A stretch of DNA of 64,000 nt, taken from a virus (taxonomy: Duplodnaviria > Heunggongvirae > Uroviricota > Caudoviricetes). The position numbers and the translations under genes were made by a program. Below are positions 2,103 through 62,417 of this stretch, one piece after another. Below the pieces are notes generated by a model. It had not been told where the DNA came from. It made no database searches and was given only the letters and a program-made list of their open reading frames with translations. Position 1 is the stretch's first letter. Every line of letters begins with the position of its first letter. The stretch covers positions 344 through 64,343 of the IMG/VR virus record IMGVR_UViG_3300031867_000033. One strand, written 5' to 3'.

Positions 2103-2400
2103 CTTACTCTTTTCCGAAAGAGTAAGCAGAAAAGGCTTCCGCAAAATGCGCGGAAGCGGGCATTAGGCGCTACGCGCCCATCAAGTCTATATAATCCCTA
2201 TACTAGCTCGGCCTCCGGCCTCGCAATCAAAAGGTCTTCACTAAGTAATCTTTTTCTTCCTACAATGCGCCGCCCTATCATAATTTACTCTTCCAAAAAC
2301 TAACCTCTATCCTCCTTGGACGCCGGCGCATCATAAGAAAAAAGGTTAGACCTTTTAGTCTAACCCTACCTTGCGCCGCCATATCATAGGTCTTCTTCTG
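2103..2400. repeat. GC-rich composite hairpin segment (multiple stems incl. GGCGCTACGCGCC) plus three GCGCCG-core palindromic elements
   Basis: Hairpins cttactcttt/aaagagtaag, gcttccgc/gcggaagc, ggcgc-tac-gcgcc, ggttagac/gtctaacc; shares motifs with 58690-58950. Confidence 0.5.
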
Positions 2401-2644
2401 GCGGCTTAATTTGTTCAATTTTAGATTTACTATGAGTTTTCTCTTCTACCTTATCTATTGCGTCGAAGAAACAAAGAATTAAAATTGTGATTAAAATACT
2501 TAAAATCCCTATTGGTACTCCCCAATAGATAAAACAAAAAGGAATTATAAAGATTGCTATAGAGAGATAGACAGATAGTAATATTAAGAAGATAAAGTAA
2601 AGAGTTTTAAGAAAATTTTTTAATGTTTCTTTAAGGATTTCCAT
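2384..2644 (-). CDS. small membrane protein (2 predicted TM helices)
   Basis: ORF track; RBS AAAGGAGGC before ATG; hydrophobic stretches. Confidence 0.55.
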   Translation of the reverse strand: MEILKETLKNFLKTLYFIFLILLSVYLSIAIFIIPFCFIYWGVPIGILSILITILILCFFDAIDKVEEKTHSKSKIEQIKPPEEDL

Positions 2645-2668
2645 TAAAGCCTCCTTTGATTTCTACTG

Positions 2669-2860
2669 TCAATTACTAAGCCTTATCTGGTTTCTACTGT
2701 CAATTTCTATTAGTTTTTCTTTACATTTATCGTTATAGACTTGAATGCAATAGTTGTCATTGAGTTTTATATGAGTATCTATAAGTGATTGTAATGCTCC
2801 GATTGATTTACAAGTACCTAAGAACTTATATCCATTATACATATCTATTAAGTAAAACAT
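2669..2860 (-). CDS. hypothetical small protein
   Basis: ORF track; weak RBS. Confidence 0.35.
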   Translation of the reverse strand: MFYLIDMYNGYKFLGTCKSIGALQSLIDTHIKLNDNYCIQVYNDKCKEKLIEIDSRNQIRLSN

Positions 2861-2898
2861 TTATATTTCCCCCCTATAATGCGCCAGCGTATCAAATT

Positions 2899-3108
2899 TT
2901 AATCCTTTTCAAAATAATTTTTAAGTTCCTTATAAAGTTGTTCTGCATCAACCCAAGTAGAATTATACCCACCTTCATTATAAGCAACTACACATAACTT
3001 TCCTTCATATGTACCCAATTCAACTTCCATTCCTTCACCATATTCCTTAACATTTAAAATAATCTTTACCAAATTAAATCTTCCTCCTATAATGCGCCGG
3101 CGCAGCAT
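2899..3108 (-). CDS. hypothetical small protein; true start probably internal (TTG/ATG after AGGAGG at ~3050-3065), N-terminus of track ORF reads through a GC palindrome
   Basis: ORF track; palindrome GCGCCGGCGCATTATAGGAGG directly abuts the RBS. Confidence 0.3.
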   Translation of the reverse strand: MLRRRIIGGRFNLVKIILNVKEYGEGMEVELGTYEGKLCVVAYNEGGYNSTWVDAEQLYKELKNYFEKD

Positions 3109-3177
3109 TAGTATTTGTTTATACCAAGCCAGCGGAATGTAATCATTTGATAGTTTTATTCCTTATACTTTCCTTTC

Positions 3178-4469: not shown

Positions 4470-4680
4470 ACAATATAATTGTGCCGCCCTACCATAATTT
4501 TCCTTTCTCAAATCTAGCCTCTGTCTTCCTTGAACGCCGGCGCATTGTAGGCTTAAAAATAAAAGAAAGGTTAAGACTTAGCTTAACCTTTAATATAAAA
4601 CCTTATTATACTTACAACTTCTTTCCTACAATGCGCCGGCGCAATAAACCTTATTTTGCTTCTTCTTTCTCAATAATTTT
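4470..4680. repeat. composite GC-rich palindromic element (3 cores + GGTTAAGAC..TTAACC hairpin), homolog of 2271-2400
   Basis: Shared order of motifs with 2271-2400: GCGCCGCCCTAYCATAATTT ... ACGCCGGCGCAT ... AAAGGTTARGAC hairpin. Confidence 0.55.
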
Positions 4681-6520: not shown

Positions 6521-6573
6521 TCTTTGATATTGAAGGCTAAAATCTATAATGCGCCGGCGCATCATAAGTTTTT

Positions 6574-6750: not shown

Positions 6751-6851
6751 AATTGATTTAATTTCCTCTGTATTAGTGCACTAAAGGTTAATAAAATTAA
6801 CGCCGCAGTATTACTACCACGGCGCATTATTTTATTCGCCGCTATTCAAGT

Positions 6852-8925: not shown

Positions 8926-9291
8926 AACTTTACCTCTTTCTTTAAAATAAATTTCAGTTTATTTTGAAGAAGGTTCTTTCGCTGACAGTTAAACTCGCTA
9001 TTCATTCTGTTACTTCTTCAAAATATCCCTAACGGATTTCGCCGCCGCTTGATTTAGAACAACGCAGTAATGTTCGCGGGAATCTTTCTGAGTCAAGCTC
9101 GCTCCAACTCTCATCACTTTATTTTACATCTTTTTGATGATAAGATGTAGAAAATAAGATTGATTTTTAATTTCTTTCTCATTTTCTATATATATTATAC
9201 CAAAAATTTTTTCATTTTGGCAAATATTTTTATTTTATTGTTTTTCCTATAATGCGCCGCGGTATCATAAAAAGTTTGATGCGCCGGCGTA

Positions 9292-9858
9292 TCAAGATTT
9301 TAAGAGACCTATTTTATTTATCTCATTGTAGATTTCTTTCCAATTATAAACTCTTTTGAAGTCGTAAGTAAAGTTCTCGCCAATAAATCTATTCCAAGGG
9401 TAGTCAAGACAAAGACTAAAATAAGTTCTATCTCCAATTAAATTCTCTACATAATCATCAATTAAAATGTCAAGACGAACAAGTCTTTTATCTTTTATAT
9501 TTATCATATGATTCTTTACAAAATCATATGAAAAGTTTGTATGTCTTGAAATATACTTAATCTTTTTTCGTAGATTCTCTGGCTCAGTACTTGTGCAGAA
9601 ATAAATTGTATGCCCATCATCATATAATTTTTCTACTGTTTCAAACGCGTCTTTAATTGGTTTAACCTTCTGCCACATAGCTTTATTCAGAAAACTTTCT
9701 TTAACTATCCACTGATATTGCGGATTAAGTAGGTTTTCAATGTAATACTCCTTTATATCTTCAATGGTAAAATTAGTTCCTAAACGTTCATTTATATATT
9801 CAAGAACAGCAGCGCTTGTCGTAACAAGTGTATTATCTATATCAATTCCTATAATCAT
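9292..9858 (-). CDS. HAD-superfamily hydrolase, 5'(3')-deoxyribonucleotidase-like
   Basis: N-terminal MIIGIDIDNTLV (DxDxT HAD motif I). Confidence 0.55.
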   Translation of the reverse strand: MIIGIDIDNTLVTTSAAVLEYINERLGTNFTIEDIKEYYIENLLNPQYQWIVKESFLNKAMWQKVKPIKDAFETVEKLYDDGHTIYFCTSTEPENLRKKIKYISRHTNFSYDFVKNHMINIKDKRLVRLDILIDDYVENLIGDRTYFSLCLDYPWNRFIGENFTYDFKRVYNWKEIYNEINKIGLLKS

Positions 9859-10574: not shown

Positions 10575-10787
10575 AGATATTACCTCTTTCTTTTTATTTA
10601 TTTCTTATTTTCTATATATATTATATCAAAAATTTTTAAAAATTGCAAATATTTTTTTGATTTTTCTTTCCTATAATGCGCCGCCCTACCATAATTTGGT
10701 AGGAATTATAAGTTTTAAGAGATAACAGAAGATAAGGGGAAGAAATAAAATAAAGCGCCGCAGGATGATACCGCGGCGCAAGGTAAA

Positions 10788-12366: not shown

Positions 12367-12623
12367 TATAATACCTCTTTCTTTATTTCTCATTTTCTAT
12401 ATATATTATATCAAAAATTTTTCAAAAATGCAAATATTTTTTTATTTTATAAGATACAATACTAAGATTACAATGCGCCGGCGAATTATAAGTAAATAAT
12501 TGATACTAATTTCTTTATTATAGACAATTTAATTAAAACTTCTACTTAATAATAAGGAAGAATTTTGATTTTCAAAAGGAAAATTAAAAACTAACCTAAT
12601 AACTTACAAGAGGTGAATTATGG

Positions 12624-13445: not shown

Positions 13446-13525
13446 TACTATGTCTGCGTATCAAAAACTCTTTTCTTACAATGCGCCGCGAGTCCAAAAA
13501 ATTGGACAGCCGGCAGTTCAAGGCT

Positions 13526-13565
13526 TTAAATAAAACAAAAGCACCGCAGTTGATACCGCGGCGCA
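13526..13565 (-). terminator. intrinsic terminator built from GC-palindrome core (RNA 5' GCGCCGCGG-UAUCAA-CUGCGGUGC UUUUGUUUUAUUU)
   Basis: 9-bp stem with two G.U pairs followed by U-tract, directly after stop of 13574..13762; same sub-element recurs at 28971-29005, 58941-58975, 10741-10775. Confidence 0.6.
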
Positions 13566-13573
13566 ATGTAGAC

Positions 13574-14180: not shown

Positions 14181-14293
14181 CCAAAAGACATTCACCTCCG
14201 CGTCTCGCCGCCCTATCATAAAGTCAATAAAACTTGATACCGCGGCGCATTGTAAATTTAAAATTTAAGGGGAGAAAAATCTCCCCTTTTCTT

Positions 14294-18920: not shown

Positions 18921-19044
18921 TACAATGCGCCGCGGTACCATAAATCTTTACTTCGCCAATTGTCCAAAAAATTGGACTCGCGGCGCATTACAAGCGAAAG
19001 ATAAAATTAAAGCGCCACGATTGGGCCGCAGCGCATTATAATTT
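18921..19044. repeat. cluster of GC-palindromic elements incl. nested GTCCAAAAAATTGGAC hairpin
   Basis: TACAATGCGCCGCGGTACCATAAA ... GGACTCGCGGCGCATTACAAG ... AAAGCGCCACGATTGGGCCGCAGCGCATTATAA. Confidence 0.55.
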
Positions 19045-22470: not shown

Positions 22471-22650
22471 AATTATCCCCTCCTAATTCTTTTATTTATT
22501 TCGTAAAAGTTATTATAGAAATATCTTTTTTTCTTTATTTCTATAATAATTATAGCAAAAATTCTTTAAAAATACAAATCTTTTTTAAAAATTTTAACCT
22601 ATATTACGCCGCGGCGCACTGTAGAACAAATACTAATAGTATAAAATATA

Positions 22651-23130
22651 TTATAAAAAATCAAAATAATCTTTTTTGACCCTTCTTTTATTATATTCTT
22701 GTTTTAAATCTTTTACTAAACTTTTAGTTCTTTGTATCTTATCTTGTTTATCTTTTGAAACTTGTTTAATAAACTTTGCTTTATCTCTAAAAATAGCTTC
22801 TTCCTCTGGGGTTAATCCTAATTCTATCAATTTACTCATTAATTCATTTAATTGTACTTTTAATTCATCTAAGGTTAATGATCCATCTTTACAATTGGTA
22901 TAAAAATAAAAATGATTATCTGAATCATAAACAATATAACCTTTATCTATCAATTCAGTTTTCGCTCTCTTTGCAGTACTTTCACTTACGTCATAACTTT
23001 TCTAAAAGTCTTTTGGTGAATAAGCAAAGTCATAATTATCCTAATTTTGAGCAAAATATAAATATAATTTTAATGCACTTGGAGTTAAATTCTTTGCTGC
23101 TTCTTGAAGTTCTTCAATAGAAATCTGCAT
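22651..23130 (-). CDS. winged-helix DNA-binding protein (replisome-organizer / Rep-N-like), 2 in-frame TAG
   Basis: RBS CAGGAGGG-ATG at 23128-23130; ALKLYLYFAQNQDNYDFAYSPKDFQKSYDVSESTAKRAKTELIDKGYI. Confidence 0.55.
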
Positions 23131-23369
23131 AAATGGCTTCCCTCCTGTTTTATCAATACGTTTTTTAATCGTACCATTATGCTAATTTGCATACGTCATA
23201 TTAACAACTCCCATTTTTTATTTTATTTACTCCTCTTCAATAATGAATAATAATAAAGATAGGAGGAGGTGGGAGTAAACCTCCTTTTAAATAGAGTAGC
23301 TAATTCTATTTCCTATCATATATTATGTAATAATTATATCATAAGAATCTAAAAAAATCAATCATTTTT

Positions 23370-23606
23370 GACCTTTATTTTTGAACTATACGTATCAAAT
23401 TTAAGCTAATTTCAAATGTAGTATAGTTCAATAATGATACATAGTAATTCCAAATTTTAAATTAGGGCTGTATTAAAAATGAACCCGTTCAGAGGTCAGA
23501 AATAATACAGCCCTTATAACAAAATTTAAATAACAAATATATAATATATAATAAATAAATATTATAGATAAAATAGAATTGTGCCCTACGGGCATCCTTT
23601 TTTAAA
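23370..23606 (+). ncRNA. candidate plus-strand structured RNA ending in a strong intrinsic terminator
   Basis: Hairpins GAACTATAC/GTATAGTTC and GGGCTGTATTA/TAATACAGCCC, then TGCCCTACGGGCATCCTTTTTT at 23586-23606; no ORF. Confidence 0.25.
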
Positions 23607-23700
23607 TTTTTAACCTATATTGCGCCGCGATAGCAAACCCTTAGATATAGATATTAAAAATCTATATTAAAGTTTCATCAAGCCGCGGCGCAATGTAAAC

Positions 23701-28870: not shown

Positions 28871-29006
28871 ATTCTTACAATTCGCCGCAATATCAACTTT
28901 TTAGACAAGACTTTAAATTTTATCACATTAAGGATTTTCAAAGGGCGCCGGCGCAACGTAAATTTAGCAATAAAATAAAGCACCGCAGTTGATACCGCGG
29001 CGCATT
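28871..29006. repeat. cluster of GC-palindromic elements ending in terminator sub-element AAAGCACCGCAGTTGATACCGCGGCGCATTGTAGAT
   Basis: Directly after stop of 29013..29786. Confidence 0.55.
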
Positions 29007-35041: not shown

Positions 35042-35929
35042 TTAATGACCAGCCTCATCTGCTTCATGAAGCATTTTTAATTTCTCAAAGAAATCATTTC
35101 CATAAAGATTTTTAATATTCCTAAGTCTATTCTCGCCTTCGTAAAAAGCCATGTGAAGCTGAATTAAATTAGCAGTTTCAATTGTTGAAAAATTAGCATC
35201 GACGCTTGTTATATAATCATAAGCGCTAACATTAGCATGAAAAAAATAGTGGGCTTCTTCCGTTTTTATTCCTTTCTTATTTGTAAAAACTTTAGTAACT
35301 TCTTTTCCGATGTCATGAAGATACGCCGCAGAGACTACTTCAATCGGGAATTTATTTTTCATTGCATAATCTCCCGCAGCTATCATATGGTCTCCTATAG
35401 ACAAACTATGATGGTGATTATCATGAGGTACGTTTCTAAGTACTTCTACTCTTTTAATTAAATCAACTTCGCTATTTTCATCATGAATAAAATGAATTTC
35501 CGACCAACCCTCACAATAGGCAGGCACCTGGAAGCTTCTATACATTCTATCCATCACATAAGAAGGGACAGTTCTTTCTCTATTTAAATTTCTTCTTACG
35601 CAAGTATCAAAAGGAATTGCAAAAACAAGTGCAATTGCATCAAATTCAACATGAGTTCTCTCTCGAAGCGCATTAAGAAATTTAATACGACGTTTCTGAT
35701 TTAAATTAGTCGCATCATAAAAAACATTTTTCTCTGCATTTAAACTAGCTACTGTTCTATTCATCATCTCATTAAAAATAATATCATTATGAGACTGATC
35801 ATTTACATCTCCAAACATCTCTTCTCTTAACTTATCAGATGAAATATAAACAGCATTAGATAATTCATTTCTCCAATAAGTGCTCTTACCTGCTCCAGGC
35901 AAGCCTATGGTCATCCATAACTTAGTCAT
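35042..35929 (-). CDS. polynucleotide 5'-kinase (P-loop) fused to C-terminal HD phosphohydrolase domain (RNA end-healing enzyme)
   Basis: Walker A GLPGAGKST at N-terminus; HD signature AAYLHDIGK and His cluster in C-terminal half. Confidence 0.65.
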   Translation of the reverse strand: MTKLWMTIGLPGAGKSTYWRNELSNAVYISSDKLREEMFGDVNDQSHNDIIFNEMMNRTVASLNAEKNVFYDATNLNQKRRIKFLNALRERTHVEFDAIALVFAIPFDTCVRRNLNRERTVPSYVMDRMYRSFQVPAYCEGWSEIHFIHDENSEVDLIKRVEVLRNVPHDNHHHSLSIGDHMIAAGDYAMKNKFPIEVVSAAYLHDIGKEVTKVFTNKKGIKTEEAHYFFHANVSAYDYITSVDANFSTIETANLIQLHMAFYEGENRLRNIKNLYGNDFFEKLKMLHEADEAGH

Positions 35930-36263
35930 TATTTTCTCCTTCCGAAATTAAATTTTCAAATTCACCTTGCGCCGCGGTATCAATTATTTCAGTCTTATCC
36001 TGCGCCGGCGCATCATCTTTTTCATTAAAATCTTGATAGGGCGGCATATCGTTTTCTAAAATCATAGGCTCATAGACCATATGCATATATGTTATAGGTA
36101 AAGTTAAATTTGCACCCGTTGACATCGGAATAACAATATTATGTTCTTTATTCTTTTCTTTGCCCCACTCTATTGCTTCCTCTTCTGTATCAAATTCATT
36201 TTTATAAATAACTCCCGATTGGGGATTACCCCAATCTACTACCCATTTATTATTATTCGGCAA
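35922..36263 (-). CDS. hypothetical acidic protein; coding sequence contains two GC-palindrome cores (35960-36015)
   Basis: ORF track. Confidence 0.5.
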   Translation of the reverse strand: MPNNNKWVVDWGNPQSGVIYKNEFDTEEEAIEWGKEKNKEHNIVIPMSTGANLTLPITYMHMVYEPMILENDMPPYQDFNEKDDAPAQDKTEIIDTAAQGEFENLISEGENND

Positions 36264-36945: not shown

Positions 36946-37281
36946 TCATATAGTCACAAATTCTGCTTGTACTGCTTTCATTTCATTCCATTCTTCATCT
37001 GTAATCTTACAAAAATCACAGAATGCTTTTATTGGATTATCTGCCGCGCTTACTGCAAGAACAAAATCAAATGAACCTTTTGGCTCTATATTCTTACGTT
37101 CAAGAATTTCTTCAATACCTTCTGCTACAACCTCAGGAGGCTGCCAATTTTTTATAAGATAACGCGAAACACTTGAAGCTGAGATGCCAAGCTGCCGCGC
37201 CACCTGAGCCTTAACGCCACATTCATAGTAAAGTCTGTTAATTTGTTCTTTCTGTTCCTCTGTGATTCTTGAACCTGCCAT
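36946..37281 (-). CDS. HTH DNA-binding protein
   Basis: GVKAQVARQLGISASSVSRYL helix-turn-helix. Confidence 0.5.
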   Translation of the reverse strand: MAGSRITEEQKEQINRLYYECGVKAQVARQLGISASSVSRYLIKNWQPPEVVAEGIEEILERKNIEPKGSFDFVLAVSAADNPIKAFCDFCKITDEEWNEMKAVQAEFVTI

Positions 37282-37580
37282 TATACATTCTCCTTTCTAA
37301 CCTTATCCCAAACTGAATGAAGTTGTTCAATAGTACAGTTTAATTCAATTACTTTATCCTCATCTTTAAAAAGAATTGAGACATCACTTGGATTAATTTC
37401 ACTCCGACGATAATTCCAACCGCTCTTCCGAATTAAGTTAAACAAACCATCACTAACATTATGAAGAAGATAGTAACGATTTTTACCAGCTACCCGAATG
37501 ATCTGGTCTATAATATAAAATTTGTTCTCGTCAATTATTGACGGCTTAATAAATCTCTTAAAAAATTCCATTTTCCTCAC
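37281..37580 (-). CDS. hypothetical protein
   Basis: ORF track. Confidence 0.45.
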   Translation of the reverse strand: MRKMEFFKRFIKPSIIDENKFYIIDQIIRVAGKNRYYLLHNVSDGLFNLIRKSGWNYRRSEINPSDVSILFKDEDKVIELNCTIEQLHSVWDKVRKENV

Positions 37581-37696
37581 CTCTATATATATATTATATC
37601 AAAAATTTTTAAAAAATACAAATCTTTTTTTATATTTCTAAGCCTATAATACGCCGCGGTACCATAAAATCTACGATACCGCGGCGCATTATAGGC

Positions 37697-38023
37697 TTAA
37701 GTTTCAATTTTAGTTATATCACTTATTTCTTTATCAGAATTAATCTCATTAAACACATAGACTTCTCTTCCATCTTTTCTTATATAAAGTGTTCCAAGAG
37801 AAAAAATCTCAGGTTCTCCATTGCAAAACTCAATCTTACGTTCTACTTTATTATTATAGTCTTCTCTTAGACTTCTTTCAAAGTCAGAACCACGGCACCA
37901 ATTTGTCTTAGAATCAACAATCTTTAACTTAGTTTCCCCATCGACTTCAACCTTTTCAACTTCGTTAATCTTAAAACGAAACTTAGCCTTTGTAAATCTT
38001 AAATTGACATTCTTATTAAACAT
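37697..38023 (-). CDS. hypothetical protein
   Basis: ORF track. Confidence 0.45.
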   Translation of the reverse strand: MFNKNVNLRFTKAKFRFKINEVEKVEVDGETKLKIVDSKTNWCRGSDFERSLREDYNNKVERKIEFCNGEPEIFSLGTLYIRKDGREVYVFNEINSDKEISDITKIET

Positions 38024-38460: not shown

Positions 38461-38662
38461 ATTTAATCTCTCCTTTTCATTTTCTATTATAATTATAATA
38501 TAAAATTTTAAAAATTACAAATATTTCTTACATTGCGCCGCGATAACAACTTATTATACTCACCTTATTAAAATTCTACATTAAGAAATTTTTATAGCGC
38601 GCCGGCACATCAAAGTTTAAATCTAAACAAAAATGCCGTAGCTATTGCCACGGCATTTAATC

Positions 38663-40725
38663 TTACGCATCATTATTCATAATCTCTGCAAGGTCTCTCT
38701 TATTATTAAACTGCTCTATACTAGCCTTAATCTCCGCTATATCTTTCTTAAGTCCTTCCACATTCTCATTCCCGTCCTCTATGGGCGCCGGCGCATTGTA
38801 GGAATTAAAATTCTGAGCAAGCATCATCATAAGCATAGGATTAATTTCCTTATCTTCACTCATGAGCATAAAAGGAAGCATCTGATTTATATTGCTATTC
38901 CCATTTCCCATAAAAGAAAACATCATAAGATATTTAAACATATCACTATTGTCGCTATCATTATCCTTATTCATAAACATAAAGGGAAGCATATTACCAA
39001 AAGGATTAGCCTCATTTGCTGTATTGCCAATCATCGAAAAAGGCGAAATTACCTTTGTATAGTAATTAAAACCGAATATACTCTTCTCGGGGATAAGGAA
39101 CTGAATAGTACCACCGATAGGATCAATTGCTTCAAAAGTAGTAGGTGTACTTACCTTTACTATATAAAAACTACCCTTATGCCGAATTACATCTCCTCTT
39201 GTAAGGCTTTCCTTATTCACAGGGATAGTATAAAGAGGAATATCCATTACAAAATCAGATACATTTGTCGCTTCATTTGTATCAATATTATAAACACAAT
39301 AATCCCCATTCACATCTCTAAAAGCTATTCCATTAAAGGAATAAGCAATTTCCTTTGTCTTAAGCTCACCAAAGCTAAAGTTCTTAAAAATATTCTTCAT
39401 AGTTTTTCTCTCCTTCTTATTATTATTATCAATTTTTATACCAATCGTTTTAACTCTAGACAATCTATAATAGTCGTCTCCCTTTCTAATAACAGCCCCA
39501 TCAGAATAAGGCTTCATTGTACAAGGGTCTATATAGATAAACTGTTCTTTAAGTTCATTAGAAAATCCATCTTGATTACCAGGATGTACAATATAATCTG
39601 CACCTGCAATACATCTTTCCATTCTATCGAAAAAGACTTCATCTGAATTTTGTGATTCTTTTTCTTGTGATTTATCTATATCCTTTACATCTTCTACTAT
39701 AGGAATTTCTGTAGGCTTAAAACAATCAATTGCTATAGCCTCGTTATCCATTTCCTTTTGACAATCTCTTCTTGCCTTTATATAATTCTCTAATTCATTA
39801 AAATCATTAGCATGAAAAGCATAAATATTATCATGTTCTCGTATTTCAAAACCTTCACTACTGTTGTTCCAAAAAATAATTCCTAATTCTTCAGTTGTAA
39901 AGGATTCTTTTATAATATCTGCTCCATAAATAGTATAAATACGAACAGTATCAAAAGTTGAAATTTCAATTCTTTTATTCGCTTCATCTGGAGTTAAATC
40001 CATAATTTTCTCAACTCTTAACTGTTTTTTATCATAAGGATTGTCAACCATATAAGAATTGTCAATTATATAAGAATCCTTATAAAGTTTAGTAACGTTA
40101 ATTATTGTACCAAGATGAATTTTTGATTTTATATTCTCGCCAAGTTCATATAAATAACTCTTTTGCGAAGAAAAATTACCCCATCTATCAGCAAATTTTG
40201 CTAAAATATAGCTATGTTTCATTATATCTTCATTCTTCATCTCTACTGGTATATTATCTTTCTCATTAATTGCTTTCGCCCTTTCCGAATCAATAAAATC
40301 TGTAAATGCAGTATAATTAGGATAAATTTTACCCCACGGATCAGTATACTGAACATGACGATAATCTGATGTTAAGTCACAAGTATCAAGATAATTAGCT
40401 AAAATAACATTAGAATAACTTTCCCTTACTAAAAGGAAATGCTTAATTCCTTTCCAATTATTAAGTATATTGCAGTAATAGGAAAAAGACTCAAAATCTT
40501 CATCATCAAAACCTTTAACCATTTCAACACAAAATGGTCCGTGCGCTATGCTATCTTCTTCATACGGATAATAATTTTTTCCATAGTCATTCTTATGTCT
40601 ATTTACAAAAGAAACATCTCGAATATAATCTCCAATCTTTAACTTATGTTCAAAGATTTCAACTGGAGTTAAAATATCACAACTTAAATCTCTAATCCAT
40701 GCAACTCTTACCATTATTCTTTTCT
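38663..40725 (-). CDS. large hypothetical protein (~687 aa) with Met-rich C-terminal repeats (MLPFMFM / MLPFMLM / PMLMMML)
   Basis: ORF track trimmed to MVRVAW after AAAGGAGAAAAGAATA; contains an in-gene GC-palindrome core at 38781-38803. Confidence 0.65.
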
Positions 40726-40837
40726 CCTTTCGCTTAAAATTGTTGCGCCGCGATACCATAATTTCTTAATGCCGCGGCGCGTTGTAAGAAAGAGGTGTAA
40801 AGTTAAATTTGGCGGAATAAATTCTGATTATATATCT

Positions 40838-45913: not shown

Positions 45914-46077
45914 CTTTTTTTACCTCATTTCTTATTTTCTATAATAATTATATCAAAAATTTTTTAAAATTACAAATAGTTTTATATTTTAAAAACTATT
46001 AAAATTAACTTCTGCCGCGCTACCAAATGCTGGTAGAATTAGAAAATTATGGAAGCGCGGCGCATTGTAAACTTAAA

Positions 46078-49235: not shown

Positions 49236-49404
49236 TTATTTTCTTTGTCTAAATTTTTCAACTAATTTCATACCTTCATTAATTCCATATTGAATACCAT
49301 AAGGAATTTTTTCTTTATCTTCTATATTCTTTAAAATTTGTCCCATTGAAAGAAAAATTGCTAAAGCTAAAAGATAGTCACCATACATATTATTTTCATT
49401 CATA
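49236..49404 (-). CDS. small membrane protein (start at MNENNMYG after TATAGGAG)
   Basis: ORF track trimmed; N-terminal part of track ORF is read-through of a GC palindrome. Confidence 0.4.
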
Positions 49405-49529
49405 TTTTTACTCCTATAATGCGCCGCGACATCATAAATCATCAAATCTAACCTTCGCCACGAGTCCAATTTTTTGGACAGTCGGCAGAGGTTAAGAAAA
49501 TAATTAAATCTATGATATGGCGGCGCAAC

Positions 49530-49650
49530 AAAAATAATAACCGCCTTCCGGAGGTGTCGGGCCCCACTACGTTCTTCACGAAGCCAACCGATTTCAAGTC
49601 GGTGCTCAGCGCCGGCTGAGTTCAGAAGGCAAAAAACAAGACCATTATAA
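49530..49650 (-). ncRNA. GC-rich multi-stem structured RNA candidate closed by a 7-bp terminal helix (GCCUUCU/GGAAGGC); not a canonical tRNA
   Basis: Stems CTCAGC/GCTGAG and ACCGA-CUUGAAA-UCGGU seen; lies ~450 bp from the Ro60-like gene. Confidence 0.3.
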
Positions 49651-54656: not shown

Positions 54657-55448
54657 TCAGTCTAAATTCATCTCTGCTAAATCCAGAAGATAAATTAAAC
54701 CCTTGTCTAAATAACTTCTTGCTTTCTTTTTCAAATCTTCGTCTACACCATAATAAGCCTCAGCAATACTTCCAGCTATCGCAGCAATAGTATCACTGTC
54801 TCCACCTATTGAAATTGCATTTCTTATACAATCCTCAAAGTTTTTTGATTCAAGAAAACATTCAATTGCTTGTGGCACTGAACCTTGACAGCTTTCCTTA
54901 AAAGTATAACTTGGACGTATATCATCTAAAGTAAAATTTATAATATAATAAGTATTTGCGTAATATCTTAAATACTCTTTGTCTTTACCTTCTTTAGCAA
55001 GAAAAATTAAAGAGCTAATTGCTTCTGCTCCCTTTATTCCTTCTGGATGGTTATGAGTAACTTTTGCAGTTAATCTTGCATTTTCTACCGCTTCTGCTAT
55101 AGTTCTTGCATATAAGCCACATGGACTTACTCTCATAGCAGACCCGTTACCCCAAGAATTATATGGTTGAGGATTGTCGGATTTAATCCACTGATAAAAT
55201 CTCTAACCATATCCTGCTCCATTATACTGTCTGCCTAATCTTTGCATCCAATACTGCGCCGCGGTATTAAGTCTAGTTCCACTCATTTTATTTTGAACCA
55301 TTGCCGCAGCTATAGCTATAGTCATAACAGTATCATCTGTATAACTACATCCACTATCAAATAAATCAAAATCTTTTGATTTGATATTATTAAATTCAAA
55401 ACGAGAACCAACTATGTCTCCAATTATTGCACCGTAAATTGTTTTCAC
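54657..55448 (-). CDS. ADP-ribosylglycohydrolase (DraG/ARH-like), 263 aa, one in-frame TAG joins two track ORFs
   Basis: IYGAIIGDIVGSRFEF...DDTVMTIA at N-terminus, GNGSAMRVSPCG in joined region, GGDSDTIAAIAGSIAEAYYG near C-terminus; ORFs 55203..55448 and 54657..55136 same frame, separated by TAG at 55203-55205. Confidence 0.7.
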
Positions 55449-58689: not shown

Positions 58690-58950
58690 CGTTGGTCGCA
58701 CAAAAGATTTCTAAAACTAATTAATTTAATCTTAAGCCTATATTTACGACCGCCGGCGCTACGCGCCTCTGGTCTATTTTCAAAAGCTCTCAACTAAGGA
58801 AACTCTTCCATTTAATCCTCTGCCGCCCTTCCTTCAAAATCGATTGCACGCGCAACGCGCGGGCAAGGCTTTCGTTTTGCGCGAGGCCGCAGGCCGAGTA
58901 GCAAAACAAAGCCCAAGAAGCATCAAGGCTTTAATTTCTATTTTAAAACA
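58690..58950. repeat. GC-rich hairpin cluster sharing GGCGCTACGCGCC and GCGAGGCCGNAGGCCGAG motifs with 2130-2260
   Basis: Direct comparison of the two segments; 13-mer GGCGCTACGCGCC identical. Confidence 0.5.
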
Positions 58951-58982
58951 AAAGCACCGTGGATAATACCGCGGCGCAAAAT

Positions 58983-60120
58983 TTATTTTTTAATCCATTT
59001 AGTAAAATGAATAGCTAAATAATATAAACAAAATATAACTGGAAAAATTACTAAATAACTTCCACTTAAACTATGAACTAATGTTGTAATTTGATTTCCA
59101 ACAAGTCCAGCTATTGCCCAAGCAGATAATGCTGTTCCATGAATTTTACTTATATGTTTCATTCCATATAAGTCTGAAAGTAAAGGAGCAATACAACTAA
59201 AACCTGCTCCATAACAGGCAGAAATTAAAATTAAAGCAATAACTGAAAATTTAGAAAAACAAAAAGCAAATATTGCACAAACCATAGAAATTAAAAAGAT
59301 TATATAATAAATTGTTTTTCTTTCTTTTAGCTTATCTGAAGCTGCAGAAAATACTAATCTTCCTGCTCCATTAAAAATCCCCATTATAGAAACGACTAAA
59401 GCAACTGCTCCAACACTAAAGCCAAGTTCTCCAAGAATTAAACTTGCAGTAGGAATTAAAGCAAGACCACAAGCAATATTTAAAAAGAATAACAGCCAAA
59501 TAAAAATAAAATTCTTATCTTTTAATAATTCTTTAATTTTAAAATCTGTTTTTGTTTGCGGCTCGTTCCAGCCCTCTGGTTTCTTCAAAAGAAAATGTCC
59601 TATTAGCATTGGAATAAAATATATTCCAGCAAGGATTAAAAATACAATTGGCAATGCAAAATGTGCCATTAAAAAAGTAATAATAGGACTTGCAAGAGTT
59701 GACGCGAATCCAAAAGCACAAACTGAAATTCCAGTTGCTAGTCCCTTATTGTCTTTAAACCATAACATTAAGGTTTTAACAGGAGTTAAATAGCCAATTC
59801 CTAGTCCAATTCCCATTAAACATCCATAGCCCAAATAAAGAAGAACTAAAGATTTTAAACCGACTGCTAAACCAGCAAGACAAAGTCCTCCACAAAAACA
59901 AAATATACTAATTAAAGAAGAGCGATGAATATTTTTTTCAACAATTGAACCACCGAAAGCAGCACTCATTCCCAGAAAGAAAATTGCTAAACTAAAAGCG
60001 AATTGAACTAAACCAACTGATACTCCTAAAGCTAAAGCGATAGGTTGGACAAATAAAGACCAGGCATAAACAGAACCTATACAAATATGAAGTAAAATTG
60101 CGGGAAGTGCCGCATTTACT
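58983..60120 (-). pseudogene. MFS transporter, oxalate/formate antiporter (OFA) family, 5'-truncated by TnpB element copy 3
   Basis: Track ORF 58983..59969 extends in frame upstream (…AALPAILLHICIGSVYAWSLFVQPIALALGVSVG…, OFA-type GSVYAWS motif) to the IS right end at ~60121 with no start codon. Confidence 0.55.
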
Positions 60121-61345
60121 GTGTTATTAACTTAGTTCGTTAAACTAAGCAACTAACCATGCTATGGTTTTTAAAGAGTGCCACAAACACTCTTCGCAGC
60201 TATATTTATAGCCGCATTTATATCTCTATCCATTTCAAAACCACAAGAGCATTTAAATACTCTATCTTTAAGAGTTAATTTGATTCTATTTCCACAGAAA
60301 CTACAGGTTTGACTAGTATAGACAGGATTTACTTCATATAAATCCGTTCCAAACTTTTTACATTTCCACTTTAAAGTATCAGTAAATCTACTTAAAGGAT
60401 TAATTTGAATTAGTCTTCTTCTATTTTTATTAGACATTTTAATTTTAGCATTAGTTAAATCTTCTATTGCTATATTATTATATCTACACAGTCTAGTAGT
60501 TGTTTGTTCTATGAAATCTTTCTTTAAATTTTCAAATCTTTCATAAGCTAATTTTACTTTATTGTTTAACTTATTCCAATTGTTTGAATTTTTATTTTTC
60601 TTATCTCTTAAAGATTTTAGCTTATTTATTCTATAAAATTCTCTTGTAACACTTTTCGGATAATTTATAAATTCACCACTAGAACTTGTCATAAAGTTCT
60701 TTATACCCCAATCAAGCCCTATAGTAGTTAAACTGTTCTGCTTAACAGGTTCAGAAATATTATAGCTGCCGGTAATATACCATTTACCAGATTCATATTT
60801 AAACCTTGGTTCTTTTATCTCTAATATATTAAACTTAGTTATATATTTCTTATCAACAACTATTTTTGATTTACCTTTTACCGAAAAATTTCTAGCAGAC
60901 GGTAATTGAATTTTAAAATTTTTAATATTAAGATTCTATGAAGGTAAATAGAATGATTGTTTATTCGGGTTATACTTGTGGAATTTTGGTCTCTACCCTA
61001 TCTTTTTATAAACTCTATTTACGGAATTGGCATAATTATAAAGAACGCCTCTATATAATCGCTTAGGAAGTGATATTTCTGTATTAAAATCTTTTATAAG
61101 ATTTTCTTCATTATACTTAATAATTCCAAAAGAGCTTACATTAGGTAAATTATCCTAAAATTTCTCTACGAGAAAATTTCTCATAATATGAGAGTATTTA
61201 CAATAAATAAACAAAATTTCTTCTTGTTCTTTAGTTGGATAGATTCTAAATTTACAACCTTTTAACATTTGATTTTCACCTCCTATTGTAATATATTAAG
61301 TCTCTCACTTTAAATATATTATAACTTAAAACAGAGATAAAATCA
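60121..61345 (-). mobile_element. IS200/IS605-family TnpB-only element, copy 3, inserted into 5' end of MFS gene
   Basis: Right-end motif TGTTATTAACT...AACCATGCTATGGT and left-end motif shared with copies 1 and 2. Confidence 0.65.
60171..61268 (-). CDS. tnpB: TnpB, ~366 aa, 3 in-frame TAG
   Basis: ATG at 61266-61268 after GGAGGTGAAAATCAA; MLKGCKFRIYPTKEQEE...; TAGs at F(Q)D, G(Q)R, S(Q)N. Confidence 0.75.
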
Positions 61346-61795
61346 AATATTTGACATGGCTAATTCTCTATTTTTCAATAGAGCATAGGTCATATCATAA
61401 TCCTTAAACTAAGGATCCTCCCCATTTCAGATTCACTTGAATCCTACTCCATTTCTGGATGACCGTCGAACCTTCTCCTGTTCGGAGCTTGGCTGCTGAT
61501 TGTCGATTACATTAATATTTAGGTTTGCACCATATATTATCTAATTATTTCTTTCTACTTTCGTAACATTCACGCTTAGTTGTATTTCAAACTTACGTTG
61601 TAGTATAATTAGCTTTACGACTTCCCAGCAATTAAAGGAGTTATTCGACACTAATTACTTAGTGAAGTGGCAATTACTTACCATTTATTTCTTTTCATTT
61701 AATTCCTCCTTTTAATTTAAAGCCTTAATCTACAATGCGCCGCAACATCATAAAATCTATCAAACATGATAGGGCGGCGCAATGTAAGAATTAAT

Positions 61796-62329
61796 TCAAA
61801 TAAAATTTTCTTTAAAATATGTTTTTGAACAGTCAACAAAATAATCAGAAATTCGTTTCCAACAGCGTTGATTTGTACTACCTCGAAAATCTAGTATTCT
61901 TGTCTTTTTTTCTTTCTCATATCGTCCGTCTATTAAATAATCAATATTTCTTAATATTAAAGCAGTATACTCTTTTTCTATATCCTTTCTTGTTTGCAAT
62001 TCTTCAAAAGTATAACCAGTATAAAGTATAATATTCTAGTTATTTTCCTAAGTAATTGGTTTTATAGCTGTAAGAAGTAGTATTATTCCTTCTAAATTTT
62101 TTGGATGTAAAGGATCTCCACCTGAAATTACCAAATTCTTAATATGAGAATTTTCCAAGTTAGAACGAATTTCATCTATTTTTTTATCAAGTGGTATTCC
62201 ATAATTAAAGTCCCAAGCTATTTTATTATGACATTCAGGACATGCATGAGTACAACCTGATACAAATACTACTGTCGATAAACCCCTTGCATTACCTGAA
62301 TCAAAATTAATTATATTTGCTATATTCAT
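61796..62329 (-). CDS. nrdG: anaerobic ribonucleotide reductase activating protein (radical SAM), 177 aa, 2 in-frame TAG; TGA stop
   Basis: GLSTVVFVSGCTHACPECHN (Cx3Cx2C); track ORFs 62048..62329 and 61796..61999 joined by TAG at 62048-62050. Confidence 0.7.
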
Positions 62330-62417
62330 TTTTATTCCTCACTTTTTGATTATAATGCGCCGCGATATCATAAGTCCTATGACTTACAATAAACAGCGCA
62401 TTGTAAAATTTTTAGTT

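What the first reader, a model, noticed from the sequence alone, without database searches (positions are those of the whole stretch)
2271..62400. Family of GC-rich palindromic hairpin elements (~50 cores) in almost every intergenic region
In a ~70% AT genome, nearly every minus-strand gene is followed by one to four copies of a GC-rich element. The core is GCGCCGCGG or GCGCCGGCGC, typically TACAATGCGCCGCGGTAYCATAA facing an inverted partner TTATGATACCGCGGCGCATTGTA across a 5-70 nt spacer. This gives 18-20 bp imperfect hairpins.

Notable variants:
- The sub-element AAAGCACCGCAGTTGATACCGCGGCGC, which as minus-strand RNA folds into a 9-bp stem with two G.U pairs plus a U-tract. This is a textbook intrinsic terminator.
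- A nested GTCCAAAAAATTGGAC hairpin at 13486, 18961 and 49441.
- Two 130-190 bp composite versions at 2271-2400 and 4470-4680.

Many copies end as ...GCGCATTATAGG(AGG), butting against the next RBS or against a TATAAT-like hexamer. Two cores lie inside coding sequence at 35960-36015 and 38781-38803.

These could be terminators or RNA 3'-end stabilisers, an operator for a global regulator, or a REP/MITE-like mobile repeat. The sequence conservation goes beyond what a terminator needs.
Basis: seen in the sequence. Interest (0 to 1): 0.7.

Follow-up and report, generated by a model that had tools for sequence, protein, structure and literature searches.

The report
Phage terminator–promoter hairpin cassettes
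The GC-rich palindromes are real; they are the hairpin half of repeated "stop here, restart here" transcription cassettes between the accessory genes of an uncultivated low-GC phage, closely resembling the PeSL cassettes already described in T4-like phages, so they are a tidy new example rather than a new kind of element.

Summary
The repeat family is real. There are 54 half-elements against about 2 in shuffles, and exact cores occur 22 times against 0 expected. It is strongly non-coding, but it occupies only 21 of 67 intergenic gaps, not almost all.

The window is part of a 98-kb metagenomic phage contig. It carries tRNAs, a tmRNA, NAD-salvage and RNA-repair genes, homing endonucleases and TnpB.

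In gene (minus-strand) orientation each hairpin starts 2-4 nt after a stop codon. At 10 or more junctions it ends about 44 nt before the extended -10 of a near-identical sigma-70-type promoter, which has about 25 copies.

One subclass is a textbook intrinsic terminator: 10 of 10 have a sense-strand T-tract. Others are 20-29-bp stems without a T-tract.

The hairpins are kept at orthologous junctions in syntenic relatives. Terminator arms change by compensatory or G·U substitutions. A distant relative has a co-varied family consensus.

A 1-kb gene cassette is flanked by a 33-bp direct repeat of the hairpin arm. Eight of 24 synteny breakpoints lie at the modules.

Best reading: PeSL-like terminator/attenuator-promoter cassettes that also act as recombination linkers. 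No transposase, methyltransferase or RNase III gene was found. This is a new variant of a known kind, of moderate interest.

The parts
37645..37693 (-). Class II split hairpin (U'-loop-U) starting 4 nt after the stop of ORF 38023..37697. The stem extends to 37637-37700, 29 bp.
   Evidence: RNA fold -49.3 kcal/mol, z = -10.8.
37593..37621 (-). Conserved sigma-70-type promoter (TTGTAT-17-TGATATAAT) of the same module, followed by an RBS and ORF 37580..37281.
34801..34849 (-). Class II hairpin. The module continues with the promoter at 34750-34778.
   Evidence: Fold -36.7 kcal/mol, z = -7.0.
31504..31553 (-). Class II hairpin 3 nt after the Band_7 gene stop, with the promoter at 31442-31470. The junction is conserved in L335 and L336.
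28876..29009 (-). Composite element. It contains a class III intrinsic terminator (28980-29003 plus T-tract), an internal compact palindrome (28943-28954) and a 3' half U (28876-28898). The promoter follows at 28826-28854.
   Evidence: Orthologues are present in L335, L336 and L337.
18921..19040 (-). Composite after NadE. It contains a class III terminator (19012-19034), a hairpin with the apical GTCCAAAAAATTGGAC (18962-18977) and U (18921-18943), then a promoter at about 18872-18900.
   Evidence: Compensatory changes in the L335/L336/L337 orthologues.
13477..13570 (-). Composite element: a class III terminator (13541-13564) plus a hairpin with the apical GTCCAA..TTGGAC (13492-13507).
10672..10785 (-). 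Composite element: a class III terminator (10755-10779), a spacer and U (10672-10694). The promoter follows at 10620-10648.
   Evidence: The whole module is 75% identical to L308 8040-8273.
23616..23697 (-). Class II hairpin preceded by an ordinary terminator (23704-23731). It forms the left border of an inserted gene cassette.
23597..23629 (-). Left copy of the 33-bp direct repeat CGCGGCGCAATATAGGTTAAAAATTTAAAAAAG, made of the hairpin 3' arm plus the AT-rich spacer.
   Evidence: Alignment A4 against the uninterrupted L337 9735-9925.
22580..22623 (-). Right copy of the direct repeat, inside a fused compact element (TACAGTGCGCCGCGGCGTAATATAGG...). The promoter follows at 22549-22577. The roughly 1-kb segment between the repeats carries the 159-aa HTH_36-like ORF 23130..22651.
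9248..9297 (-). Compact palindrome plus U in tandem, with the promoter at 9194-9223.
12468..12491 (-). Class I compact palindrome (TTATAATTCGCCGGCGCATTGTA), with the promoter at 12405-12434.
4475..4649 (-). Composite element containing a compact palindrome (4627-4649), an ordinary terminator (4566-4591) and a split element (4475-4549). The promoter follows at 4434-4462.
2261..2389 (-). Composite element homologous to 4475-4600, with the ordinary terminator 2342-2367 inside it.
   Evidence: L316 2357-2442 is 90% identical.
6544..6567 (-). Class I compact palindrome TTATGATGCGCCGGCGCATTATAG, upstream of the promoter-like leader of TnpB copy 5339-6442.
3088..3110 (-). Class I palindrome abutting the RBS (GCGCATTATAGGAGG), with no promoter between them.
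2875..2897 (-). Class I-like palindrome abutting the RBS GGGGGG and the ATG at 2860.
49415..49532 (-). Long composite hairpin with the apical GTCCAATTTTTTGGAC (49464-49479). U abuts the RBS GGAG of the 55-aa ORF 49403..49236.
58954..58983 (-). Class III terminator directly after the MFS gene stop: GCGCCGCGGTATTATCCACGGTGC followed by TTTTGTTTTA.
6800..6831 (-). Class III terminator variant: GCGCCGTGG...CTGCGGCGT followed by TAATTTTATT.
40739..40786 (-). Class II hairpin immediately upstream of the 698-aa ORF.
61731..61786 (-). Class II hairpin with an internal loop. It is followed by an RBS and the ATG of the MFS gene that the TnpB element interrupts.
14206..14254 (-). U' plus a degenerate U, preceded by an ordinary hairpin at 14267-14288.
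46047..46069 (-). Single U' half, 92 nt upstream of the promoter at 45947-45975.
62351..62373 (-). U half with a degenerate partner, upstream of the NrdG-like ORF.
38529..38615 (-). Two degenerate halves downstream of the ordinary terminator 38631-38658.
35963..36060 (-). Three element pieces read in frame (MPPYQD, DDAPAQDK, IDTAAQGE) in the C-terminal tail of ORF 36125/36263..35922.
38781..38803 (-). Compact palindrome read in frame as YNAPAPIED at residue 652 of the 698-aa ORF. Homology to distant homologues stops at residue 650, just before it.
55250..55272 (-). Core TACCGCGGCGCA inside the N-terminus (NTAAQY) of the ADP-ribosylglycohydrolase ORF 55325..54657.

Best explanation
The GC-rich palindromes are the stem-loop component of composite terminator/attenuator-promoter cassettes. 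These cassettes punctuate the accessory (early-type, ORFan-rich) region of an uncultivated low-GC phage.

How it works at the RNA level:
- Read in the direction of the genes, the RNA folds into a hairpin that begins 2-4 nt after the stop codon of the upstream gene.
- Versions in which the conserved 5' arm GCGCCGCGG pairs with a short complement followed by a U-tract are ordinary intrinsic terminators.
- The long versions (20-29 bp, no U-tract) most likely attenuate read-through. As perfect double-stranded RNA they are probably also cut by host RNase III, leaving a protective 3' hairpin on the upstream message.
- About 20 nt after the hairpin, a near-identical sigma-70/sigma-A-type promoter with an extended -10 restarts transcription for the next gene. 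Each small gene is therefore an insulated unit.

How it works at the DNA level:
- Hairpin plus promoter form one repeated module of about 110-130 bp, so the copies recombine with each other.
- This recombination inserts, deletes and swaps gene cassettes and homogenises the copies.
- That process, rather than the needs of termination, explains the strong sequence conservation.

Shown:
- The position of the hairpins.
- The architecture of the hairpin-promoter module.
- The terminator anatomy.
- The orthologous conservation.
- The compensatory changes.
- One repeat-flanked cassette indel.

Inferred:
- Actual termination.
- Actual RNase III processing.
- The promoter's timing.
- The recombination mechanism.
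For: Phage context:
- PHROG and Pfam hits.
- 13 tRNAs and a tmRNA.
- The window is identical to ENA contig ERZ27256863:k141_3536858.

Position:
- The U' half starts 2-4 nt after TAA at 37697, 31557, 29013, 19045, 10788 and 58983.

Module with promoter:
- About 25 minus-strand copies of AAAAATATTTGyAwTTTTTAAAAATTTT-TGnTATAAT-ATwTATAGAAAAT, against 2 TGnTAYAAT hits on the plus strand.
- The hairpin's 3' end lies 42-56 nt before the extended -10 at nine junctions (37645/37601, 34801/34758, 31504/31450, 28876/28834, 22601/22557, 12469/12413, 10672/10628, 9248/9202, and an unmeasured one near 18921/18880). It lies 33 nt before it at 4475/4442. The same arrangement is seen in L330.

Terminators:
- The family members are the top terminator-like hits on the minus strand.
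- 10 of 10 sense-orientation class III hairpins have 5 or more T in the next 8 nt, against 0 of 2 in antisense.

Structure selected:
- 3' arms of orthologous terminators differ by C/U changes that keep G·U pairs.
- GCGTCGCG/CGCGACGC (L335/L336) and GCGTCGTGG/CCACGGCGC (L337) are compensated.
- The distant relative L339 has the family consensus GCGCCGGCCTACCA...TGGTAGGCCGGCGC in place of GCGCCGCGGTATCA...TGATACCGCGGCGC. Four positions changed on both arms, at the same kind of junction and followed by the same kind of promoter.
- Sense-strand folds are more stable than antisense in 18 of 23 elements.

Inheritance:
- Hairpins are present at the same three junctions in syntenic relatives whose NAMPT is 74-91% identical.

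Recombination:
- The 1-kb cassette 23596..22614 is flanked by a 33-bp direct repeat of the hairpin arm plus spacer. L337 has the uninterrupted site.
- L336 has a 3.7-kb insertion between the NadE terminator and U.
- 8 of 24 synteny breakpoints lie within 60 nt of a module, against 9.3% expected (p = 0.001).
- Modules are 75-85% identical between contigs that share almost no genes.

Precedent:
- PeSLs have the same architecture: stop codon, stem-loop, AT-rich region, sigma-70 promoter, SD, start.
- A PeSL stem-loop terminated as well as rrnB T1, and PeSLs mediate cassette indels (PMC2839356, PMC4122927).
Against: - There are no transcript data of any kind.
- About half of the hairpins lack a U-tract, so termination by them is unproven.
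- Several sit directly against an RBS with no promoter after them (3088, 2875, 49415). A full terminator there would silence the next gene.
- Among copies within the genomes there is no copy-specific covariation: 79.3% of cells paired against 80.5% in shuffles. The palindromy is a property of the consensus, which would also fit sequence-specific recognition of each half.
- The sense/antisense stability difference is only modestly larger than the background strand bias (-5.6 against -2.4 kcal/mol).
- Only 13 of 21 hairpin-bearing gaps also hold a promoter -10, and 19 promoter-bearing gaps have no hairpin.
- 16 of 24 breakpoints are not at modules.
- The phage is not demonstrably T4-like.
Confidence: 0.6

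Rival explanations
1. The long hairpins are primarily RNase III processing sites, like those between the early genes of phage T7. In this reading, polycistronic early RNA is cut in the 20-29-bp stems. This leaves stable 3' hairpins and frees the adjacent ribosome-binding sites. Termination is a property only of the T-tract subclass.
For: - Stems of 20-29 bp with recurrent internal mismatches at fixed positions (5, 14-15 and 21 of the half-element).
- No U-tract in class I and class II elements.
- Several copies abut an RBS with no promoter in between.
- Established knowledge: bacterial RNase III cuts double-stranded RNA of about two helical turns with little sequence requirement.
Against: - No cleavage data exist.
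- Most class II copies are followed by their own promoter, so downstream genes do not depend on processing.
- Compact class I stems (9-11 bp) are too short for RNase III.
- No phage RNase III gene appears among the Pfam hits.
Confidence: 0.15
2. Each 23-nt half is a double-stranded DNA binding site for a phage or host regulator (an operator, or a stoperator-like roadblock). The site would sit at about -58 to -80 of the early promoters and shut them off or activate them. In this reading the palindromy reflects paired sites rather than a hairpin.
For: - Sequence conservation without copy-specific covariation.
- The 5' arm is more conserved than the 3' arm in terminator orthologues.
- Fixed distance to the promoter.
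- An HTH_36-like ORF lies inside the hairpin-flanked cassette.
Against: - Spacing between halves varies from 0 to 92 nt.
- Many copies have no promoter nearby.
- Arms co-vary between lineages, and orthologues carry G·U and compensatory changes.
- One half is routinely built into a T-tract terminator.
- No cognate protein or methyltransferase was identified.
Confidence: 0.12
3. The elements are selfish REP/MITE-like mobile palindromes, comparable to REP/BIME, Rickettsia palindromic elements or yeast mitochondrial GC clusters. They would be spread by a transposase or nuclease encoded elsewhere, with any regulatory role being secondary.
For: - GC-rich palindromes in an AT-rich genome, mostly extragenic.
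- A GTAG at the foot of many copies.
- In-frame copies inside three ORFs.
- Three TnpB genes lie in the window, two of them next to an element.
- A family sharing the same outer core in contigs that share few genes.
Against: - No Y1 transposase/RAYT in about 70 kb.
- No target-site duplications.
- Copies are kept at orthologous junctions across relatives whose NAMPT is down to 74% identical.
- Tight register with stop codons and promoters.
- Only chance singletons in 185,579 bacterial species genomes.
- The in-CDS copies sit in C-terminal tails and are equally explained by stop-codon loss.
- The sharply bounded TnpB element at 60119-61686 lies 16 nt inside the MFS gene, whose own upstream hairpin is merely nearby.
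Confidence: 0.1

Closest known systems
PeSL (promoter-early stem-loop) cassettes of T4-like phages RB49/phi1, T4/PST and KVP40/nt-1 (Arbiol et al. 2010, PMC2839356; Comeau et al. 2014, PMC4122927)
   Same: - Same order of parts: stop codon, stem-loop, AT-rich stretch, near-consensus sigma-70 promoter, SD, start.
- Many near-identical copies between small ORFan genes.
- The stem consensus is specific to each phage lineage.
- Degraded or 'half' copies occur.
- Association with indels and replacements, and with repeat-flanked cassettes.
   Different: - The stem here is much longer (up to 29 bp) and is a 23-nt conserved half-site palindrome with a GC core, rather than short GGGG..CCCC or A3G3..C3T3 stems.
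- It always lies upstream of the -35, never within the promoter.
- It also occurs alone, as a T-tract terminator, and in frame inside ORFs.
- The promoter has a Gram-positive-style extended -10.
- The phage has no close cultured relative and is not shown to be T4-like.
- Mini-circles and terminator activity are untested.
Host-takeover module of Bacillus phage SPO1 (terminal redundancy; own knowledge, Stewart et al. 1998)
   Same: A dense series of small early genes in a Gram-positive-type phage. Each gene or small group has a strong, conserved sigma-A early promoter and a terminator.
   Different: To my knowledge no conserved long GC-rich palindrome family or cassette shuffling has been reported there.
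REP/BIME elements of enterobacteria and pseudomonads, with their RAYT transposases
   Same: - GC-rich imperfect palindromes placed just after stop codons.
- They occur singly or in inverted pairs.
- They can stabilise upstream mRNA and attenuate transcription.
- A GTAG-like motif lies at the foot.
   Different: - REPs are chromosomal, not phage-borne, and are associated with a Y1 transposase.
- No RAYT was found here.
- The elements here are absent from bacterial genomes and are coupled to a promoter.
RNase III sites between the early genes of phage T7
   Same: Related hairpins of about two helical turns with internal loops. They lie between consecutive early genes, leave 3' hairpins and sit next to ribosome-binding sites.
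   Different: - T7 has five sites in a single operon without internal promoters.
- Here most hairpins are followed by their own promoter.
- Cleavage is untested.
GC clusters of yeast mitochondrial DNA and Rickettsia palindromic elements
   Same: GC-rich palindromes scattered through a very AT-rich genome, occasionally read in frame inside proteins.
   Different: - Those elements are regarded as mobile insertions and show presence/absence polymorphism.
- The elements here are positionally conserved and in register with stop codons and promoters.

Membership tests
PeSL cassettes | Stem-loop plus near-consensus sigma-70 early promoter in one short intergenic module that ends with SD and start codon | tested here: met
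   At 10 or more junctions in the window and in L330, L335, L336, L337 and L339. It is not met by the roughly 8 hairpin-bearing gaps that lack a promoter.
PeSL cassettes | Many similar copies concentrated among small, non-conserved (ORFan) genes | tested here: met
   21 of 67 gaps carry a hairpin and 32 of 67 carry the promoter -10. Most flanking ORFs have no Pfam family.
PeSL cassettes | Association with insertions, deletions or replacements between related phages | tested here: met
   A repeat-flanked 1-kb cassette. 8 of 24 breakpoints lie at modules, p = 0.001. Modules are shared between contigs with otherwise unrelated genes.
PeSL cassettes | Stem-loop terminates or attenuates transcription; promoter is active early | not testable with these tools
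   Only the anatomy is available. The T-tract subclass is canonical.
PeSL cassettes | Host genome is a T4-like myovirus | tested here: inconclusive
   T4-style accessory genes are present (Rnl1, PNK, NrdD/G, GIY-YIG endonucleases, tRNA cluster). The best cultured-phage matches are 27-41% identical and are mostly phages of Gram-positive hosts. No structural genes were available.
Intrinsic (rho-independent) terminators | GC-rich stem of 5-12 bp, short loop, then a U-tract on the transcribed strand | tested here: met
   Met for class III only: 13541-13564, 28980-29003, 10755-10779, 19012-19034, 6800-6825 and 58954-58977. Not met by class I and class II, which lack a U-tract.
REP/BIME with RAYT | Cognate Y1 (RAYT/TnpA) transposase in the same genome | tested here: not met
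   No PF01797 among the Pfam hits of called genes over window 9.8-64 kb plus 6 kb beyond it. The ORFs in 1-9 kb have no hits. The remaining 28 kb of the contig was not seen.
REP/BIME with RAYT | High copy number in the bacterial chromosome | tested here: not met
   A 17-mer scan of 185,579 species genomes gave only single chance matches, none in a low-GC genome with family context.
MITE | Terminal inverted repeats flanked by target-site duplications; presence/absence at otherwise identical sites | tested here: not met
   No direct repeats flank single elements. Elements are conserved at orthologous junctions.
RNase III substrate | Double-stranded RNA stem of about 20 bp or more in a transcript, cleaved by RNase III | tested here: inconclusive
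   The stem length is met by class II (18-29 bp). Cleavage is not testable here.
Operator / stoperator | Fixed-geometry double-stranded DNA site bound by an identified regulator | tested here: not met
   Half-site spacing varies from 0 to 92 nt. No regulator was identified. The arms co-vary between lineages.
Any Rfam family | Match to a curated covariance model | tested here: not met
   Only tRNAs and the tmRNA reach gathering score in the window.

The most novel reading that the evidence does not exclude
The conserved 23-nt half-site is not just a by-product of concerted evolution. Instead it is recognised by a dedicated phage factor.

Two candidate kinds of factor:
- A structure- or sequence-specific nuclease or recombinase, which would make the hairpin-promoter modules an active cassette-exchange system, a phage analogue of integron attC sites or REP/RAYT.
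- An RNA-binding anti-terminator or terminator factor that switches the whole set of about 30 hairpins at once as a temporal control.

Observations that leave room for this:
- There is no copy-specific covariation.
- The 5' arm is more conserved than the 3' arm.
- The same mismatches recur at fixed positions.
- Copies occur in frame inside ORFs.
Probability: 0.15. Interest if true: 0.65.

Novelty: new variant of a known kind. Interest (0 to 1): 0.35.

Why it matters
- It extends the PeSL idea beyond cultured T4-like phages of Gram-negative hosts. PeSLs are portable terminator-promoter linkers that both insulate small accessory genes and let them be shuffled. Here they appear in an uncultivated, low-GC, partly TAG-recoded phage lineage from animal-associated metagenomes.
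- It does so with an unusually long and well-conserved hairpin, whose consensus has co-varied between lineages.
- For annotation, the module gives a ready marker of transcription-unit and recombination boundaries in these phages.
- It also explains why short-read assemblies of these phages break at these sites: the contigs of the second sample end at the modules.
- It does not open a new mechanism unless a dedicated recognition factor exists.

Tried and rejected
- A 14-mer scan of IMG/VR returned mostly chance singletons in high-GC contigs. Only L040 was a real relative.
- The 17-mer scan of bacterial genomes found no host-borne family.
- The same scan of JGI metagenomes was swamped by an unrelated repeat in roughly 40%-GC contigs. 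It still yielded L275, L308, L316 and L326.
- Megablast of 22 kb against INPHARED phages gave no match.
- The copy-versus-copy covariation test on 23 hairpins (A3) gave no signal above shuffles. Evidence for pairing had to come from orthologues and from the distant lineage instead.
- The sense/antisense folding asymmetry is largely explained by strand composition and is weak evidence on its own.
- The idea that TACAAT/TATAAT in the arms is a -10 box was rejected. There is no conserved -35 upstream (A2), and the real promoter lies downstream.
- The T7-like or N4-like phage-polymerase promoter idea (GCGCATTATAGGAG) was rejected. The element occurs in both orientations, its arms co-vary, and a sigma-70 promoter follows it.
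- The idea that the palindromes are ends of the IS605-family TnpB elements was rejected. The three copies share homology only from the promoter-like leader onward (A1). The sharply bounded element at 60119-61686 has unrelated ends.
- The search for a cognate methyltransferase, RAYT or RNase III among Pfam hits found nothing.
- The contig could not be walked beyond 6 kb past the window, because only window-encoded proteins can be looked up. One look-up failed because the ORF runs off the window, and another because the start had been called differently.

Full report
**What the window is**

The 64-kb window is 30% GC, with nearly all genes on the minus strand. It encodes the following:
- NAMPT, NAD synthase and a T4-type RNA ligase 1;
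- polynucleotide kinase, Thg1 and a Ro/TROVE-like protein;
- GIY-YIG endonucleases and three IS605-family TnpB genes;
- 13 tRNAs and a tmRNA.

It is identical to part of the ENA metagenome contig ERZ27256863:k141_3536858, which is 98,360 bp. It has no close cultured relative. There was no megablast hit. The best protein identities to INPHARED phages are 27-52%. It is therefore a large uncultivated phage, probably of a low-GC host with strong Shine-Dalgarno sites.

Treating TAG as sense raises minus-strand ORF coverage from 67% to 83%. A suppressor tRNA (anticodon CTA) is present.

Yes, with some overstatement.
- GCGCCGCGG occurs 16 times and GCGCCGGCGC 6 times, against none in shuffles.
- The 23-nt half-element TAYAATGCGCCGCGGTAYCATAA has 54 hits at 7 or fewer mismatches, against 1-5 in shuffles.
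One coordinate is off: 49464, not 49441.
- The family is strongly non-coding.
- However, only 21 of 67 intergenic gaps of 40 nt or more carry it. 'Almost every intergenic region' is too strong.

**Anatomy in gene orientation (minus strand)**

The unit is U' = TAYAATGCGCCGnnnTAYCATAA and its reverse complement U = TTATGRTAnnnCGGCGCATTRTA. Four arrangements occur:

| Class | Arrangement |
|---|---|
| I | Compact palindromes, TTATGATGCGCCGGCGCATTATAG |
| II | U'-loop-U with 0-92 nt between the halves; stems up to 29 bp, -37 to -49 kcal/mol, z down to -10.8 |
| III | The U' 5' arm GCGCCGCGG, a 6-8-nt loop, a short complement CYRYGGYGY and a T-tract |
| IV | Long hairpins capped by GTCCAAwwwwTTGGAC |

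Class III copies are the top terminator-like hits on the minus strand. Across the window and three relatives, 10 of 10 have 5 or more T in the 8 nt after the stem in sense orientation. In antisense the figure is 0 of 2.

U' begins 2-4 nt after the stop codon of the upstream gene.

At 10 or more junctions the hairpin is followed at fixed distance by a second, equally conserved repeat. The end of U lies 42-56 nt before the extended -10 at most of them and 33 nt at one. That repeat is AAAAATATTTGyAwTTTTTAAAAATTTT-TGnTATAAT-ATwTATAGAAAAT.

This is a sigma-70/sigma-A-type promoter with a -35-like TTGyAw, a 17-nt spacer and an extended -10. An RBS and start codon follow it (A2). There are about 25 copies on the minus strand, against two TGnTAYAAT matches on the plus strand.

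Hairpin and promoter therefore form one repeated module of about 110-130 bp. Whole modules are 75-85% identical to modules in other contigs.

**Relatives**

Exact-pattern scans found the same family only in a handful of roughly 30%-GC viral or metagenome contigs: L040, L275, L308, L316 and L326. No family members turned up in 185,579 bacterial species genomes. Those contigs share almost no genes with the window but do share the modules.

NAMPT homologues led to three syntenic relatives, L335, L336 and L337, with NAMPT 89, 91 and 74% identical. In them the hairpins sit at the same junctions:
- Band_7 | next gene;
- phosphoribosyltransferase | next gene;
- NadE | next gene.

The elements are therefore inherited in place, not scattered anew.

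**Is pairing selected?**

Among 23 hairpin copies there is no copy-specific covariation: 79.3% of cells are paired, against 80.5% in shuffles (A3). The palindromy belongs to the family consensus.

Orthologues, however, tell a clearer story.
- At the phosphoribosyltransferase junction the 3' arm reads CTGCGGTGC, CTGTGGCGT, CCGTGGCGC and CCGTGGCGT against an unchanged 5' arm. These are C/U changes that keep G-C or G·U pairs only in the sense RNA.
- At the NadE junction, GCGTCGCG/CGCGACGC (L335/L336) and GCGTCGTGG/CCACGGCGC (L337) carry compensated changes.
- A more distant relative (L339, NAMPT 57%) has hairpins at the same kind of junction, followed by the same kind of promoter. Its consensus is GCGCCGGCCTACCA...TGGTAGGCCGGCGC instead of GCGCCGCGGTATCA...TGATACCGCGGCGC. 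Four positions changed on both arms.

Sense folds are more stable than antisense in 18 of 23 elements. Much of that is strand composition: -5.6 against -2.4 kcal/mol in random windows.

**Recombination**

- Relative to L337, the window carries a roughly 1-kb insertion (23596..22614) holding a 159-aa HTH_36-like ORF. It lies exactly between the hairpin's 3' arm and its promoter.
- That insertion is flanked by a 33-bp direct repeat, CGCGGCG(C/T)AATATAGGTTAAAA(A/T)TTT(T)AAAAAAG, made of the arm plus the AT-rich spacer (A4).
- L336 has a 3.7-kb insertion between the NadE terminator and the U half.
- Gene content downstream of the NadE terminator differs between relatives, starting at the terminator.
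- Of 24 synteny breakpoints, 8 lie within 60 nt of a hairpin or promoter, against 9.3% expected (p = 0.001). The other 16 do not.

**In-frame copies**

- The C-terminal tail of ORF 36125/36263..35922 contains three element pieces, read as MPPYQD, DDAPAQDK and IDTAAQGE.
- The 698-aa ORF reads a compact palindrome as YNAPAPIED at residue 652. Homology to distant homologues ends at residue 650, just before it.
- A further core lies near the N-terminus of an ADP-ribosylglycohydrolase ORF.

Because the hairpins normally start just after stop codons, loss of a stop with read-through into the hairpin explains the two C-terminal cases at least as well as insertion does.

**Comparison with what is known**

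The architecture is that of PeSL cassettes of T4-like phages. It runs: stop codon, stem-loop, AT-rich stretch, near-consensus sigma-70 promoter, SD, start. The other PeSL features are:
- many copies among ORFans;
- a lineage-specific stem consensus;
- degraded halves;
- cassette indels.

A PeSL stem-loop terminated as well as rrnB T1, and recombination between PeSLs produces deletions and mini-circles (PMC2839356, PMC4122927).

The differences are as follows:
- The stem here is far longer and is a conserved 23-nt half-site palindrome.
- It always lies upstream of the -35.
- It also occurs alone, as a T-tract terminator and inside ORFs.
- The promoter has an extended -10.
- The phage is not shown to be T4-like.

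REP/RAYT, MITE and operator readings each fail at least one defining feature that could be tested (see the membership table). RNase III processing of the long stems is a reasonable sub-mechanism but is untestable here.

**Verdict**

This is a real, well-defined repeat family. It is best explained as the hairpin part of PeSL-like terminator/attenuator-promoter cassettes, which also serve as recombination linkers (confidence about 0.6). It is a new variant of a known kind, of moderate interest.

The unresolved point is why each half is so conserved in sequence. That leaves a minority possibility, about 0.15, of a dedicated recognition factor.

Noticed in passing
window 53099-53175 (tRNA, anticodon CTA). 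In-frame TAGs in 5339-6442, 56253-57407, 60171-61268, 17518-18414, ~40828-41724, 52097-53053, 21577-22470, 43417-44466, 46384-47448, 62417-63307, 1172-1909 and 57565-58413.: In-frame TAG codons (1-16 per ORF) are concentrated in selfish or mobile-type genes: three TnpB, three GIY-YIG endonucleases and four paralogous zinc-finger endonuclease-like ORFs, plus two other ORFs. The ordinary phage genes of 100 aa or more have none. A few short or uncertain ORFs have 1-5. TAG aligns with Q in the paralogues (EYxGxQHY), which suggests TAG = Gln read by the phage suppressor tRNA. Recoding confined to selfish genes is unusual.
   Followed up: partly
window 60119-61686; also L040 6947-8516, L316 11306-12884, L335 12972-14546 and L336 15185-16759.: This is a 1.57-kb TnpB element with sharp conserved ends (TTGRTAAGYAATTG ... 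AATAACACAG). It sits 12-16 nt inside the MFS transporter gene, whose ATG is near 61702 and whose body is 59969..58983. The same element interrupts a lysozyme-like ORF in L316 and a tail-fibre-like ORF in L335/L336. Insertion inside ORFs suggests an IStron-like, spliced element. However, Rfam found no group I intron at E of 1 or less.
   Followed up: partly
window 49540-49640: A GC-rich, apparently structured stretch that is not part of the hairpin family lies upstream of the Ro/TROVE-like ORF 47578-49095. It is a possible Y-RNA-like partner. No Rfam match reached gathering score.
   Followed up: no
window 63310-63607 and 62417-63307: About 300 nt of non-coding, structured-looking sequence and a TAG-containing endonuclease-like ORF lie between the end of NrdD (..RICGLIINRSLKIA*) and the NrdG-like ORF. 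This may be an intron or homing cassette in nrdD. There was no Rfam hit at E of 1 or less.
   Followed up: partly
window 15617-34530: Three gene sets sit together in this block. A NAD+ salvage set comprises NAMPT, NAD synthase, an isochorismatase/nicotinamidase-like gene and a phosphoribosyltransferase. An RNA-repair set comprises RNA ligase 1 and Thg1, with the kinase/HD protein just beyond it at 35042-35929. There are also Band_7 and vWA-TerF-like genes. The block is syntenic in L335-L337 and is a typical counter-defence load.
   Followed up: no
L336 10001-12736: The NAMPT gene of this relative is called as 911 aa, with about 1 kb inserted relative to the window (between window 20658 and 20654). 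This may be an intein or an intron with a homing gene.
   Followed up: no
L211-L329 (many JGI contigs, e.g. Ga0209781_*, Ga0209679_*, Ga0209364_*): An unrelated, highly repeated element in roughly 40%-GC metagenome contigs (AATGGATGGCCGCATAATGCGCCGCGGTATCATCAGCTCATGCCAAT) shares a 20-mer with the phage half-element. This is probably coincidence, since 17 nt were imposed by the search pattern.
   Followed up: no
L334 (SRR9036512_99543), L332 and L109: Contigs of the same phage from a second sample end at the hairpin-promoter modules; for example L334 spans about window 34765..31435. The repeats therefore break short-read assemblies.
   Followed up: no
window 3600-3920; L308 5760-7080: The 300-aa beta-solenoid ORF contains tandem hexapeptide-type DNA repeats (GATAATGCTCGT...). 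These give spurious weak hits to the half-element pattern. The gene is duplicated in tandem in L308.
   Followed up: no
L326 175, 5315, 11622 and 12059: In this relative a compact palindrome recurs inside a different conserved context: AAATCAATAAkATTTTTAAAAGAATTTGTAAAyAAA-[palindrome]-AATATkAAGTA.... This may be a second module type in which the hairpin lies after a -35-like box.
   Followed up: no
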